From: an uncultured Candidatus Peribacteria bacterium
Lineage (GTDB): Bacteria; Patescibacteriota; Gracilibacteria; UBA1369; 2-02-FULL-48-14
DNA length: 64,000 nt
Assembly: GCA_964529435.1 (NCBI GenBank)
Contig: CAZGUT010000002.1
Coordinates: 33,621 to 97,620 of the forward strand
Direction: 5' to 3'
The notes beneath the pieces were generated by a model. That model saw only the letters and a program-made list of their open reading frames with translations. It ran no database searches and was not told the origin of the DNA. Positions 25,456 through 26,138 of this stretch are shown here, piece by piece (within the stretch, counting starts at the first letter, position 1; each line of letters starts with the position of its first letter). Made by a program: the position numbers and the translations under genes.

Positions 25456-25458
25456 GCC

Positions 25459-25529
25459 TGGTGGAGCCGACGGGATTCGAACCCGTATTTCTTGGGTGAC
25501 GAGCCGAAGCGCTTTAGCCAATTAAGTTA
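25459..25529 (-). pseudogene. tRNA-like element covering canonical positions 8-76 but lacking a matching 5' acceptor strand
   Basis: U8A9, D arm CUU/AAG with loop AAUUGGCUA, a hairpin with 7-nt loop CUCGUCA, T arm ACGGG-UUCGAAU-CCCGU, and CGGCUCC-A-CCA. The 7 nt upstream (CGGCCAA) cannot pair with the 3' acceptor strand. Confidence 0.55.
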
Positions 25530-25535
25530 TTGGCC

Positions 25536-25563
25536 GTAGGTTCGATTCCTACCCAGGGTACCA
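25536..25563 (+). other. Isolated tRNA 3' fragment (T arm + acceptor 3' strand + CCA)
   Basis: GUAGG-UUCGAUU-CCUAC-CCAGGGU-A-CCA. No complementary 5' strand (ACCCUGG) lies within about 100 nt upstream. Confidence 0.5.
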
Positions 25564-25568
25564 CATTC

Positions 25569-25916
25569 TTACCCCCTCCTTGCCTTCGGAATGGTGGCTT
25601 CGGGATCTCTTTGCTCACAGTCTTGATTAAGGCAAGAATCACACTCTATACGTGATGCAGAAATGGCTGCTGCTAATGTAGCGCCAAATACTTTCGTATC
25701 ACGCAAAGCTTCATCATCAGGTGATGCATCTAAAGCTTTTCCTAATGTATCCAATGCTATTCCAAATGTAATCATTTGACCTTCATGAACGCATACTTCA
25801 TGCCCAATATACCCCAGAACCTCTCTTGCTAATCGACCCCTCCTGTTGTCACTGCCTTCAATCCGAAGTAAAACTGCTCGGGCTGGTTCTGCCCATAAAG
25901 GTAGTACATTTTTCAT
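25569..25916 (-). CDS. ORFan, 115 aa, C-terminal C-x2-C-x4-C motif (paralogue of 38560..38892)
   Basis: Start moved to MKNVLPLW (25916) because the promoter -10 lies at 25959-25954. Shares REVLGY, a central Cys and ...AAAISASRIECDSCLNQDCE with the 38560 ORF. Confidence 0.55.
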   Translation of the reverse strand: MKNVLPLWAEPARAVLLRIEGSDNRRGRLAREVLGYIGHEVCVHEGQMITFGIALDTLGKALDASPDDEALRDTKVFGATLAAAISASRIECDSCLNQDCEQRDPEATIPKARRG

Positions 25917-25953
25917 AATTTTCAAGGGTGATGATTGTTTTTTACAGGGCCAA

Positions 25954-25982
25954 ATTAAACCACGCACTCACGTTATTGTCAA
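25954..25982 (-). promoter_or_regulatory. Promoter TTGACA-17-TTTAAT for the 25916 ORFan
   Basis: -35 at 25982-25977 and -10 at 25959-25954 on the minus strand. Confidence 0.5.
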
Positions 25983-26116
25983 TAGTGACTTCCACCCAAA
26001 ATCCATGCTACATTCCACACACGGCTACTTGCCGTCGACTCAAAGTTCATTTCAAAACCAGGAAGTGCCAGAAATGGCTAAGGTAAGCCGAAAACACCGC
26101 TAAAAATCATAAGTGA

Positions 26117-26138
26117 TTACCTTCTAAGCTACGGCCCC
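26117..26138 (-). other. tRNA 5' fragment (positions 1-21: GGGGCCG-UA-GCUU-AGAAGGUA)
   Basis: Canonical U8, A14, G18G19 and A21. GGGGCCG pairs 7/7 with CGGCUCC at 25463-25469, including a G3:U70 wobble. GCUU would pair with AAGC of the downstream element. Confidence 0.5.

What the first reader, a model, noticed from the sequence alone, without database searches (positions are those of the whole stretch)
25456..26138. tRNA-like gene whose 5' acceptor/D-loop piece lies 587 nt upstream of the rest, with a promoter-bearing ORFan in between
Minus strand 25529 to 25459 has tRNA positions 8-76 with an encoded CCA, but no matching 5' acceptor strand. The matching strand GGGGCCG, followed by UA-GCUU-AGAAGGUA (canonical positions 1-21), sits at 26138 to 26117 on the same strand. 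Joined, the pieces give a 7-bp acceptor stem with G3:U70 (the alanine identity pair, also used by tmRNA) and a perfect GCUU/AAGC D stem. The two pieces overlap as imperfect direct repeats (GGCCGUAGCUUAGAAGGUAA versus GGCCAAUAACUUAAUUGGCUAA). The intervening DNA holds a TTGACA-17-TTTAAT promoter, ORFan 25569..25916 and an oppositely oriented tRNA 3' fragment (25536-25563).
Three readings are possible:
- a tRNA gene disrupted by an insertion;
- a tRNA with a very large non-canonical intervening sequence;
- a split tRNA.
The anticodon-type loop reads CUCGUCA (CGU, with C37), and the region between the D and T stems is one nucleotide too long. Both points favour decay.
Basis: partly seen in the sequence, partly recalled or inferred. 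Interest (0 to 1): 0.62.

Follow-up and report, generated by a model that had tools for sequence, protein, structure and literature searches.

The report
tRNA-like gene split by tiny cassette
The two pieces are one alanine-type tRNA-like gene, the partner of a neighbouring antisense small RNA, cut in its D arm by a 602-bp single-gene insert whose ends look like a tRNA-Arg attachment site; it is a broken gene, not an intron or a split tRNA.

Summary
The window comes from an uncultivated Peribacteria (CPR) genome.

- **One gene in two pieces.** The 5' piece (26138-26125) and 3' piece (25522-25459) fold as one 78-nt cloverleaf (7/7 acceptor, G3:U70, A73, encoded CCA). The 5' leader pairs 11/12 with the 3' end plus trailer, 680 nt away.
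- **An intact relative exists.** Metagenome contig L167 carries the same gene uninterrupted. It has the same leader/trailer pairing and the same upstream small RNA (S), antisense to positions 1-10 and to the anticodon arm. The odd loop (C37) and extra nucleotide recur there, so they are family traits, not decay.
- **The interruption is a 602-bp insert (26124-25523).** It carries a promoter, a real but rare 4-Cys small-protein gene, and an inverted 41-nt copy of the 3' part of a tRNA-Arg(UCU)-type gene found elsewhere in the same population.
- **The insert looks like an integrated circle.** Its joined ends re-create tRNA-Arg positions ~29-76, broken in the anticodon loop. This fits integration at a look-alike site in the D arm.
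- **Ruled out.** No intron model, tmRNA features or split-tRNA complementarity were found.

The parts
26326..26354 (-). Promoter of the small RNA S (TTGACT-17-TATAAT)
   Evidence: Matches 11 of 12 consensus positions. It aligns with TTGACT-16-TATACT in L167.
26245..26319 (-). Small RNA S with an intrinsic terminator (stem 26270-26252, then a U run). Bases 26297-26288 (CUACGGUUCC) are complementary to T positions 1-10. Bases 26288-26277 (CUUGGGUGACGA) are complementary to the T anticodon loop and 3' stem.
   Evidence: Terminator. The inverted repeat I2 is 14/15 complementary. The unit is homologous to the S unit in L167, with 69% column identity. Pairing to T is perfect in both genomes although the T sequences differ.
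26141..26152 (-). 5' leader of the tRNA-like gene T (GCCUGGUAGAGC). It is complementary to the T 3' end, CCA and trailer.
   Evidence: Inverted repeat I1. Duplex energy -22.4 kcal/mol, reached by 0 of 300 shuffles. The L167 leader and trailer pair likewise (GCCCGG/CCGGGC; -25.7 kcal/mol, 0 of 300).
26125..26138 (-). T 5' piece: GGGGCCG UA GCUU A (acceptor 5' strand, U8 A9, D-stem 5' strand, A14)
   Evidence: Sequence. It is colinear with the L167 T gene. It folds with the 3' piece.
25523..26124 (-). 602-bp insert. CTTA occurs at both junctions, so the boundaries can slide by up to 4 nt.
   Evidence: Absent from the intact homologue L167. Its joined ends (..AACTTA + GAAGGTAAT..) are the reverse complement of tRNA-Arg ~29-76.
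26116..26127 (-). TTAGAAGGTAAT: left junction and att-like core. It is the reverse complement of the tRNA-Arg anticodon loop CUUCUAA plus a 5-nt half-site.
   Evidence: The same 12-mer lies upstream of the same type of promoter and a homologous ORF in L207 and L208.
25954..25982 (-). Promoter-like TTGACA-17-TTTAAT inside the insert, upstream of the ORF
   Evidence: Sequence. TTGACA-17-TTTAAT also precedes the homologue in L208.
25569..25916 (-). Gene for a 115-aa small protein with four invariant Cys (C42, C92, C95, C100), ending in C-x2-C-L-x3-C-x2-RDP
   Evidence: Only rare remote homologues exist. Alignment A1 gives the invariant residues. The AF2 model is helical with pLDDT 70. There is no Pfam, PHROG, PADLOC or PDB fold match. 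GC3 is 0.28 against 0.35-0.61 for seven housekeeping genes of the window.
25523..25563 (+). Inverted copy of the 3' 41 nt of a tRNA-Arg(UCU)-type gene: anticodon-loop 3' side, variable loop, T arm, acceptor 3' strand and ACCA
   Evidence: In DNA runs X1, X2, X3 and X5 the 36-nt unitig 25528-25563 has about twice the flanking depth. A second contig carries 25523-25557 (1 mismatch) preceded by GGTAGCTCAGTGGATAGAGCAGTAGCCTTC. ARAGORN calls the pieced sequence tRNA-Arg(tct).
25459..25522 (-). T 3' piece: D loop AUUGGCUA, D-stem 3' strand AAGC, anticodon-type arm (loop CUCGUCA), T arm, acceptor 3' strand CGGCUCC, A73 and CCA
   Evidence: Sequence. Folds. The D arm resembles Peribacteria tRNA-Ala. 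The final 25 nt are identical to ordinary tRNA-Ala genes of many metagenomes.
25456..25467 (-). GCUCCACCAGGC: the T 3' end plus a 3-nt trailer that pairs with the leader

Best explanation
**What it is**
- The locus is a two-RNA module inserted between pth and rplU in a Peribacteria (CPR) genome.
- One half is a small RNA, S, with its own promoter and terminator.
- The other half, about 107 nt downstream on the same strand, is a tRNA-like gene, T. T has the acceptor stem and T arm of tRNA-Ala (G3:U70, A73, encoded CCA) and a non-standard anticodon-type arm.
- S is antisense to T positions 1-10 and 33-44. The T leader is antisense to T's own 3' end.

**What happened to it**
- In this genome T has been cut between positions 14 and 15, in the D arm, by a 602-bp insert.
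- The insert holds a promoter, one gene for a small 4-Cys protein, and an inverted copy of the last 41 nt of a tRNA-Arg(UCU)-type gene.

**How the insert got there (inferred)**
- Joining the two ends of the insert re-creates about 46 nt of that tRNA-Arg, from the anticodon stem to CCA.
- The break lies in the anticodon loop, where tyrosine integrases that target tRNA genes cross over.
- The most likely history is therefore a small circular element carrying a tRNA-Arg-type attP. It recombined with a look-alike site in T: GTAGC-TTAATTG-GCTAA against the reverse complement of the tRNA-Arg arm, ATAAC-TTAGAAG-GCTAC.
- The integrase acted in trans or was later deleted.

**Consequence (inferred)**
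- T can no longer be made as a contiguous ~78-nt RNA and is probably inactive.
- Every long-range pairing is still perfect, so the event is recent.

**Shown versus inferred**
- Shown: the pieces are one gene; an intact homologue exists; the insert ends match tRNA-Arg.
- Inferred: the circular intermediate, the integrase and the loss of function.
For: **The pieces are one gene**
- The joined pieces fold as a cloverleaf that ARAGORN accepts at default.
- Leader and trailer pair 11/12 across 680 nt; 0 of 300 shuffles reach the duplex energy.

**An intact homologue exists**
- L167 has S, a 32-nt spacer, a leader and a contiguous 76-nt T.
- Its architecture matches: an extra nucleotide after the D stem, a loop ending ..CA, compensatory changes in the D and anticodon stems, and a compensatory leader/trailer change.
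- S is perfectly complementary to a 12-nt stretch of its own T in both genomes, although 5 of the 11 shared positions differ.
- None of the other 46 loci of that scan, mostly ordinary tRNA-Ala genes, has an antisense match of 10 nt or more nearby.

**The module and insert are lineage-specific**
- In relatives L001, L002 and L005-L011, pth abuts rplU.

**The insert ends match tRNA-Arg**
- Logan contigs of four DNA runs show a real tRNA-Arg(UCU)-type gene sharing 25523-25563. Its depth tracks the window's, and the shared 36-mer has about twice the flanking depth.
- The reverse complement of that tRNA continues ..AACTTA|GAAGGCTA, and the insert's other end starts GAAGGTAAT.
- TTAGAAGGTAAT plus a TTGACA-17-TTTAAT promoter also precede a homologous ORF in L207 and L208.

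**The ORF looks real and foreign**
- The ORF belongs to a real protein family and has atypical codon usage.

**The assembly is sound**
- Three independent JGI assemblies give the same join.
Against: - The 602-bp insert has no integrase gene, and none was found among 20 larger window ORFs tested.
- Only 5 nt (GAAGG, then TA after a 1-nt gap) on the left end continue the tRNA-Arg sequence. The chance of that match is about 1 in 1000.
- Similarity between the T D arm and the tRNA-Arg site is 14/21. That is no higher than the best chance alignment between the two sequences when every offset is tried.
- No empty-site allele and no circle junction was seen in contigs of five DNA runs. Contigs drop rare variants, so this is weak.
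- No RNA data exist for this organism, so loss of function is not shown.
- The tRNA-Arg gene was seen only through 30-nt loose ends of contigs, not in full.
- Only one intact homologue (L167) was read in full.
Confidence: 0.62

Rival explanations
1. T is still functional as a two-piece or processed RNA. A long transcript runs from the T promoter through the insert. Its ends are held together by the acceptor stem, the D stem and the leader/trailer helix. Cleavage within the insert leaves a 5' fragment and a 3' fragment that stay paired, as in two-piece tmRNA from permuted genes. AlaRS, which needs only the acceptor helix with G3:U70 (established knowledge), still charges the complex.
For: All 7 acceptor pairs, all 4 D-stem pairs and 11/12 leader/trailer pairs are intact across the 680-nt gap. 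S also still matches both pieces perfectly.
Against: - A recent insertion explains the intact pairing equally well.
- No intron family matches.
- The RNA has no excess fold stability (z = 0.04).
- The sequences bordering the two pieces are not complementary to each other.
- The intact relative shows that the ancestral state is contiguous.
- The genome's second module has lost its T altogether, which fits decay.
Confidence: 0.12
2. T is broken, but by illegitimate (microhomology-mediated) insertion of a linear chromosomal fragment that happened to lie next to a tRNA-Arg gene or one of its att scars. No circular element or integrase was involved. The GAAGG match at the left end is coincidence, or is T's own D loop.
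For: - CTTA microhomology occurs at both junctions.
- No integrase was found.
- The left-end match to tRNA-Arg is only 5-7 nt.
- The same genome shows other small lineage-specific ORF insertions, for example 23104-23544.
Against: - The break in the tRNA-Arg copy falls exactly in the anticodon loop.
- The far end of the insert continues the tRNA sequence from that very base.
- The 12-mer TTAGAAGGTAAT recurs upstream of a homologous cassette in an unrelated contig.
- The T site has GTAGC/GCTAA half-sites spaced 7 nt apart, like the tRNA-Arg anticodon arm (and the sequence itself).
Confidence: 0.17
3. The join is an assembly artefact. The contig was mis-joined through the 36-41-nt repeat shared with the real tRNA-Arg gene, so the 3' piece and the ORF/5' piece are not adjacent in the genome.
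For: Logan unitigs break at 25523-25564 in every run, and the 36-mer has double depth.
Against: - Three independent JGI assemblies give the identical join with no gaps.
- The join places pth next to rplU, as in all relatives.
- Both hybrid junctions (T 5' piece with insert, tRNA-Arg fragment with T 3' piece) lie inside single unitigs. T would be split even under the alternative path.
Confidence: 0.04
4. The 683-nt unit is an unusual tmRNA whose mRNA-like part is the 115-codon ORF.
For: It has a GGGGC 5' end, G3:U70 and a ..GGCUCCACCA 3' end. There is a weak RF00023 match (16.8 bits).
Against: - The RF00023 score is far below the gathering threshold of 47 bits.
- ARAGORN finds no tmRNA at default.
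- The unit has full D and anticodon-type arms, unlike a tmRNA tRNA-like domain.
- The ORF has its own promoter and AUG, and protein homologues exist outside any tRNA-like context.
- The intact relative is only 76 nt.
Confidence: 0.01

Closest known systems
Genomic islands and prophages integrated into tRNA/tmRNA genes by tyrosine integrases (Islander database, PMC4383910; sublocation classes of Williams 2002, from my own knowledge)
   Same: One end of the insert is a tRNA 3' fragment that runs to CCA. The identity block starts at the anticodon stem and loop. The joined ends form an attP-like site, and the target is a tRNA-type gene.
   Different: - It is only 602 bp with one small gene and no integrase.
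- It sits not in its cognate tRNA-Arg but in a look-alike site in the D arm of another tRNA-like gene, in inverted orientation.
- The target gene is not regenerated; it is destroyed.
Integron gene cassettes
   Same: A unit of about 0.6 kb with a single ORF, apparently moved as a circle by a recombinase encoded elsewhere.
   Different: It has its own promoter. It has no attC-type site (R'/R'' GTTRRRY boxes are absent at the boundaries). The recombination site is tRNA-derived. No integron platform was seen.
Interrupted or rearranged tmRNA genes: group I intron in the T loop, and circularly permuted two-piece genes (PMC11915505)
   Same: An alanine-type tRNA-like gene whose acceptor strands are encoded far apart.
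   Different: No intron ribozyme is present, the break is in the D arm, the gene order is not permuted, and there are no pseudoknots or tag frame. The RF00023 score is 16.8 against a gathering score of 47.
Split tRNA genes of Nanoarchaeum equitans (from my own knowledge)
   Same: The 5' and 3' parts of a tRNA-shaped RNA are encoded apart.
   Different: Those halves split after position 37, have separate promoters and carry complementary flanks that bring them together. Here the split is at position 14/15, on one strand 602 nt apart, with no complementary flanks. An intact relative shows the split is secondary.
Alanine-type tRNA-like RNA with a dedicated antisense small RNA
   Same: G3:U70, A73 and encoded CCA. 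A non-standard anticodon arm. A neighbouring small RNA with its own promoter and terminator that pairs with the anticodon arm and co-varies with it.
   Different: Here the tRNA-like gene is interrupted. A second copy of the module in the same window retains only the last ~25 nt of its tRNA-like gene.

Membership tests
Canonical tRNA (Rfam RF00005) | Contiguous cloverleaf scoring at or above the gathering threshold (29 bits), or found by ARAGORN at default settings | tested here: not met
   No minus-strand hit reaches gathering. ARAGORN default finds nothing and finds the stretch only with -ps. The joined sequence is accepted.
Canonical tRNA (Rfam RF00005) | Standard anticodon loop (U33, purine 37) and a 5-bp anticodon stem | tested here: not met
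   The loop is CUCGUCA with C37. There is an extra nucleotide between the D and anticodon stems and a C-C mismatch in the stem. The intact L167 gene shows the same traits.
tmRNA (RF00023, RF04321) | Covariance-model score at or above 47 bits, with pseudoknots and a tag reading frame | tested here: not met
   Scores are 16.8 and 12.6 bits. ARAGORN finds no tmRNA at default.
tRNA or tmRNA gene with a self-splicing intron | A group I or II intron core in the intervening sequence | tested here: not met
   No intron family matches at E<=10 across 24800-26800. The fold z-score is 0.04.
Split tRNA (Nanoarchaeum type) | Complementary sequences flanking the two halves that bring them together | tested here: not met
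   No inverted repeat links the sequence after 26125 with the sequence before 25522.
tDNA-integrating element (tyrosine-integrase island) | A tRNA 3' fragment at one end, with joined ends forming an att identity block from the anticodon or T loop to the 3' end | tested here: met
   A 41-nt tRNA-Arg 3' fragment lies at 25523-25563. The left end continues it with GAAGG(C)TA.
tDNA-integrating element (tyrosine-integrase island) | An integrase gene inside the element | tested here: not met
   The only ORF is the 115-aa 4-Cys protein, which has no Pfam hit. None of 20 other window ORFs shows an integrase domain.
tDNA-integrating element (tyrosine-integrase island) | The target gene is regenerated by element sequence | tested here: not met
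   The contiguous copy has only 3 of 7 acceptor pairs and fails ARAGORN at default.
Integron gene cassette | An attC site with RYYYAAC / GTTRRRY boxes at the cassette boundary | tested here: not met
   The boundaries read GCTTA|GAAGG and AACTTA|ATTGG. Neither contains a GTTRRRY box.
Ala-type tRNA-like RNA plus antisense sRNA module (undescribed; from this scan's notes) | G3:U70, A73 and encoded CCA on a tRNA-shaped RNA with a non-standard anticodon arm | tested here: met
   The 3' 25 nt are identical to ordinary tRNA-Ala genes.
Ala-type tRNA-like RNA plus antisense sRNA module (undescribed; from this scan's notes) | A neighbouring small RNA gene complementary to the anticodon arm, co-varying between genomes | tested here: met
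   The pairing is 12/12 in the window and in L167, despite 5 differences in the 11 shared positions.
Ala-type tRNA-like RNA plus antisense sRNA module (undescribed; from this scan's notes) | Both RNAs are expressed and the tRNA-like RNA is alanylated | not testable with these tools
   Four metatranscriptomes from the same studies hold no contig of this locus.

The most novel reading that the evidence does not exclude
The 602-bp insert represents a class of miniature, integrase-less gene cassettes in CPR bacteria. Each has a promoter, one small 4-Cys protein gene and a tRNA anticodon-arm att core (TTAGAAGGTAAT). They would move as circles through a trans-acting tyrosine integrase, working like integron cassettes but using tRNA-type sites. 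Here such a cassette has knocked out the tRNA-like half of an RNA-only two-gene module. The antisense partner is intact in both copies of that module in this genome. That pattern is what one would expect if the alanine-charged tRNA mimic were harmful and its antisense RNA were the antidote.
Probability: 0.15. Interest if true: 0.75.

Novelty: new variant of a known kind. Interest (0 to 1): 0.5.

Why it matters
- **It settles the puzzle.** An apparent split or intron-bearing tRNA turns out to be a recently broken gene.
- **It shows what the gene is.** The gene belongs to an apparently undescribed module: an alanine-type tRNA look-alike plus a private antisense RNA. This locus adds two facts about that module. 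Its 5' leader masks its own CCA end, conserved with a compensatory change. And in this genome both copies of the tRNA-like gene are destroyed while both antisense genes look intact. This is a natural knock-out that bears on whether the tRNA mimic is costly to the cell.
- **The insert is unusual.** It is a single-gene unit of about 0.6 kb with tRNA-Arg-type att ends and no integrase. If it is mobile, it would be the smallest kind of tRNA-targeting integrative element, and a route by which small orphan genes spread in reduced CPR genomes.
- **A caution for annotation.** tRNA fragments at such junctions can mimic missing parts of a neighbouring gene.

Tried and rejected
I could not count the tRNA-Ala, Thr, Arg or tmRNA genes, look for an integrase, or read the full tRNA-Arg locus.

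**Searches that found nothing useful**
- Pattern scans of genome contigs for the 5' piece, for S motifs and for an intact gene gave nothing or only chance hits in unrelated taxa. The window's own genome is evidently not in that collection.
- The 80 pth loci of relatives contain no homologue of S, T or the insert.
- Phage and plasmid collections gave only generic tRNA-end matches. The viral-contig scan for the tRNA-Arg fragment gave none.
- RNA runs from the same studies hold nothing from this locus.
- No empty-site or joined allele appears in contigs of five DNA runs.
- The ORF product has no Pfam, PHROG or PADLOC family and no PDB fold match.
- Homologues of the ORF in L155-L159 have no tRNA fragments beside them.

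**Readings rejected**
- tmRNA, a group I or II intron, and a Nanoarchaeum-type split tRNA.
- A plus-strand tRNA at 25455-25560 (25.7 bits). It is a by-product of the tRNA-Arg fragment plus the mirror image of T.
- A target-site duplication as the origin of the 20-nt imperfect repeat.
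Full report
**Source and context.** The window comes from an uncultivated Peribacteria/Peregrinibacteria (CPR) bacterium.
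- The best relatives of its Pth protein are Peribacteria MAGs.
- An identical JGI marine metagenome contig and two 99.95-99.97% identical contigs from other samples carry the same locus.

**Checking the observation.**
- The minus strand 25536-25459 is a degenerate tRNA-like stretch ending in CGGCUCC-A-CCA. ARAGORN misses it at default and finds it only at a lowered threshold.
- GGGGCCGTAGCTTAGAAGGTAA lies at 26138-26117.
- The joined sequence is accepted at default, with a 7/7 acceptor stem including G3:U70 and a 4/4 D stem.
- Rfam finds nothing at gathering score in this region. At relaxed thresholds there is only a 16.8-bit tmRNA match, a 25.7-bit plus-strand tRNA match and no intron family.
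- The 683-nt RNA folds no better than shuffled sequence (z = 0.04).

**The two pieces belong to one gene.**
- Besides the acceptor and D stems, the 12 nt just upstream of the 5' piece (GCCUGGUAGAGC, 26152-26141) pair 11/12 with the 3' end plus trailer (GCUCCACCAGGC, 25467-25456).
- That duplex is -22.4 kcal/mol, and 0 of 300 shuffles reach it.
- Complementarity on this scale across 680 nt cannot be chance.

**An intact relative.**
- A metagenome scan with the last 25 nt of the gene returned 47 loci. Most are ordinary tRNA-Ala genes beginning GGGGCCGTAGCTCAG. The acceptor and T arm are therefore of tRNA-Ala type.
- One contig, L167, carries a homologous module with nothing inserted. It has a TTGACT-16-TATACT promoter, a small RNA (S) with a terminator, a 32-nt spacer and leader, and a contiguous 76-nt tRNA-like gene (T).
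- S regions of the two genomes align at 69% column identity.
These are family traits.
- The two T genes differ by compensatory changes: 11:24 C-G to U-A, and 27:43 U-A to C-G.
- In each genome S is perfectly complementary to a 12-nt stretch of its own T, covering the anticodon loop and 3' stem. Five of the 11 shared positions differ between the genomes.
- S also pairs with T positions 1-10 or 1-11.
- The L167 leader pairs with its own 3' end and trailer (-25.7 kcal/mol, 0 of 300 shuffles). It carries a compensatory change relative to the window: GCCCGG/CCGGGC against GCCUGG/CCAGGC.
- As a control, none of the other 46 loci from that scan has a same-strand antisense match of 10 nt or more within 400 nt.
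- Variants of the L167 module with a contiguous T occur in several groundwater and sediment metagenomes.

**The module is lineage-specific.** In L001, L002 and L005-L011, pth is followed directly by rplU. The whole stretch 25456 to about 26355 is therefore an addition in this lineage.

**What interrupts T.** Laying contigs of public DNA runs on the locus showed that the assembly graph forks at 25523-25564 in runs X1, X2, X3 and X5.
- The 36-nt unitig 25528-25563 has about twice the depth of its flanks.
- A second contig, whose depth tracks the window's in every run, carries 25523-25557 with one mismatch. It is preceded by GGTAGCTCAGTGGATAGAGCAGTAGCCTTC.
- Pieced together, this is a tRNA-Arg(UCU)-type gene (ARAGORN).
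- The 'oppositely oriented tRNA 3' fragment' is thus a 41-nt inverted copy of that gene. It runs from the 3' side of the anticodon loop to ACCA.

**Where the break lies.**
- On the minus strand the fragment reads ..GGCCAATAACTTA. The reverse complement of the real tRNA continues GAAGGCTAC.
- The other end of the interruption, next to the T 5' piece, reads GAAGGTAATCAC.
- If T is taken as 26138-26125 plus 25522-25459, its D arm is GCUU-AAUUGGCUA-AAGC. That is close to the Peribacteria tRNA-Ala D arm GCUC-AGUUGGCUA-GAGC.
- Under this reading every base is accounted for. The insert is 26124-25523 (602 bp) with CTTA at both junctions. Its joined ends re-create about 46 nt of tRNA-Arg, from the anticodon stem to CCA.

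**Mechanism (inferred).**
- The interruption in the tRNA-Arg copy lies in the anticodon loop. Islands and prophages that integrate into tRNA genes carry this kind of identity block and cross over there (PMC4383910, and my own knowledge of Williams 2002).
- The T target GTAGC-TTAATTG-GCTAA resembles the tRNA-Arg arm in spacing and half-sites. In T's orientation that arm reads ATAAC-TTAGAAG-GCTAC, and its 5' stem strand is GTAGC.
- The resemblance is 14/21 when anchored at the crossover. That is no better than the best chance alignment over all offsets, so it is suggestive only.
- I infer integration of a small circular element at a secondary site. No integrase lies in the insert or among 20 other window ORFs tested. 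The enzyme must have acted in trans or been deleted.

**The cargo.**
- The ORF (25569-25916) is a real gene of a rare family.
- HMMER over 1.8 billion representatives finds four weak relatives. A profile search adds one more, plus a paralogue in this window at 38560-38892.
- Four Cys, one Gln and two Ala are invariant, and the C-terminus reads C-x2-C-L-x3-C-x2-RDP.
- The AF2 model is a helical bundle with pLDDT 70. It has no PDB match and no Pfam, PHROG or PADLOC match.
- GC3 is 0.28 against 0.35-0.61 for seven housekeeping genes of the window.
- In L207 and L208 a homologue is preceded by the same TTGACA-17-TTTAAT promoter type. About 95 nt further upstream lies the same 12-mer, TTAGAAGGTAAT, that forms the window's left junction. 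Both contigs end about 40 nt beyond it. This hints at a conserved att core but does not prove it.

**Alternatives.**
- *Functional two-piece or processed T.* This cannot be excluded, because every long-range pair is intact. A recent insertion explains that equally well, and nothing points to a splicing mechanism.
- *Non-site-specific insertion.* This is possible if the 5-nt continuation is coincidence.
- *Misassembly through the 36-nt repeat.* This is unlikely. Three assemblies agree, the pth-rplU synteny is kept, and both hybrid junctions lie inside single unitigs.
- *tmRNA.* Excluded.

**Verdict.**
- The 'disrupted by an insertion' reading is right. The 'intron', 'split tRNA' and 'decay' readings are not supported.
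- The gene is the tRNA-like half of an apparently undescribed S-T module. I found no description in two literature searches.
- The disruptor is an unusually small cassette bearing tRNA-Arg-type att ends.
- The same window holds a second S unit (22233-22120) followed by only the last ~25 nt of a T gene. Both T genes of this genome are therefore broken while both S genes look intact.

Noticed in passing
window 22094-22233 (minus strand): A second S-type unit lies just downstream of tRNA-Leu(CAA). It has a TTGCAA-16-TATACT promoter, the conserved UAACUACGG motif and a terminator. It is followed after ..GTTGTCGAA by GCTCGTCAGCTCCACCAGGC, which matches the last 25 nt of T plus trailer at 22/25. This looks like a T gene deleted through TCGAA microhomology, leaving an orphan S.
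   Followed up: partly
window 26141-26152 versus 25456-25467; L167 leader and trailer: The 5' leader of T is complementary to T's own acceptor 3' strand, CCA and trailer. This is conserved with a compensatory change in L167. The precursor could therefore mask its own 3' end.
   Followed up: yes
window 38560-38892 (+): A paralogue of the insert's 4-Cys small protein has the same four Cys, Gln and Ala-Ala positions and a low GC3 of 0.24. It sits between lepB and a membrane-protein gene, with no tRNA fragments beside it.
   Followed up: partly
window 23104-23544 (+): Two tandem mini-ORFs of 69-70 aa lie between the dsbA-like gene and obg. The closest relatives with the same tRNA-Leu-to-pth layout are about 440 bp shorter here. 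Each ORF ends in TAATTTCTAAA, which shares TTCTAA with the tRNA-Arg anticodon-loop core. These may be further small cassette insertions.
   Followed up: partly
Logan contigs of runs X1, X2, X3 and X5, at window 25534-25564: Downstream of the real tRNA-Arg gene, a 188-nt contig carries a second 19-nt copy of the tRNA 3' end (TTCCTACCCAGGGTACCAC) about 87 nt after the first. This looks like an att scar at the natural site.
   Followed up: no
L207 1-230 and L208 1-230: TTAGAAGGTAAT sits in the loop of a 10-bp hairpin (CGGTATGGGG / CCTCATACCG). It lies about 95 nt upstream of TTGACA-17-TTTAAT and a homologue of the 4-Cys protein. Both contigs end about 40 nt further upstream.
   Followed up: partly
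L156 1936-3366, also L157 and L158: Another homologue of the 4-Cys protein is the third gene of a cluster that starts with a YbaK/ProX-type aminoacyl-tRNA deacylase (PF04073). This is a possible link to tRNA charging.
   Followed up: no
P0002 (293 aa): This protein is made of four tandem repeats of about 72 aa, each resembling residues 17-68 of the insert's protein.
   Followed up: no
L187 250-700: A tandem array of alanine-type tRNA pieces in permuted order: ..GGTTCGAATCCCGTCGGCTCCACCA, a short spacer, then GGGGCCGTAGCTCA.. It repeats about three times and resembles permuted tmRNA-like genes.
   Followed up: no
L173 300-410; L181 7083-7157: Other alanine-acceptor tRNA-like RNAs share the same 3' 25-mer but have unusual bodies, with no normal D or anticodon arm. 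No antisense partner was detected within 400 nt.
   Followed up: partly
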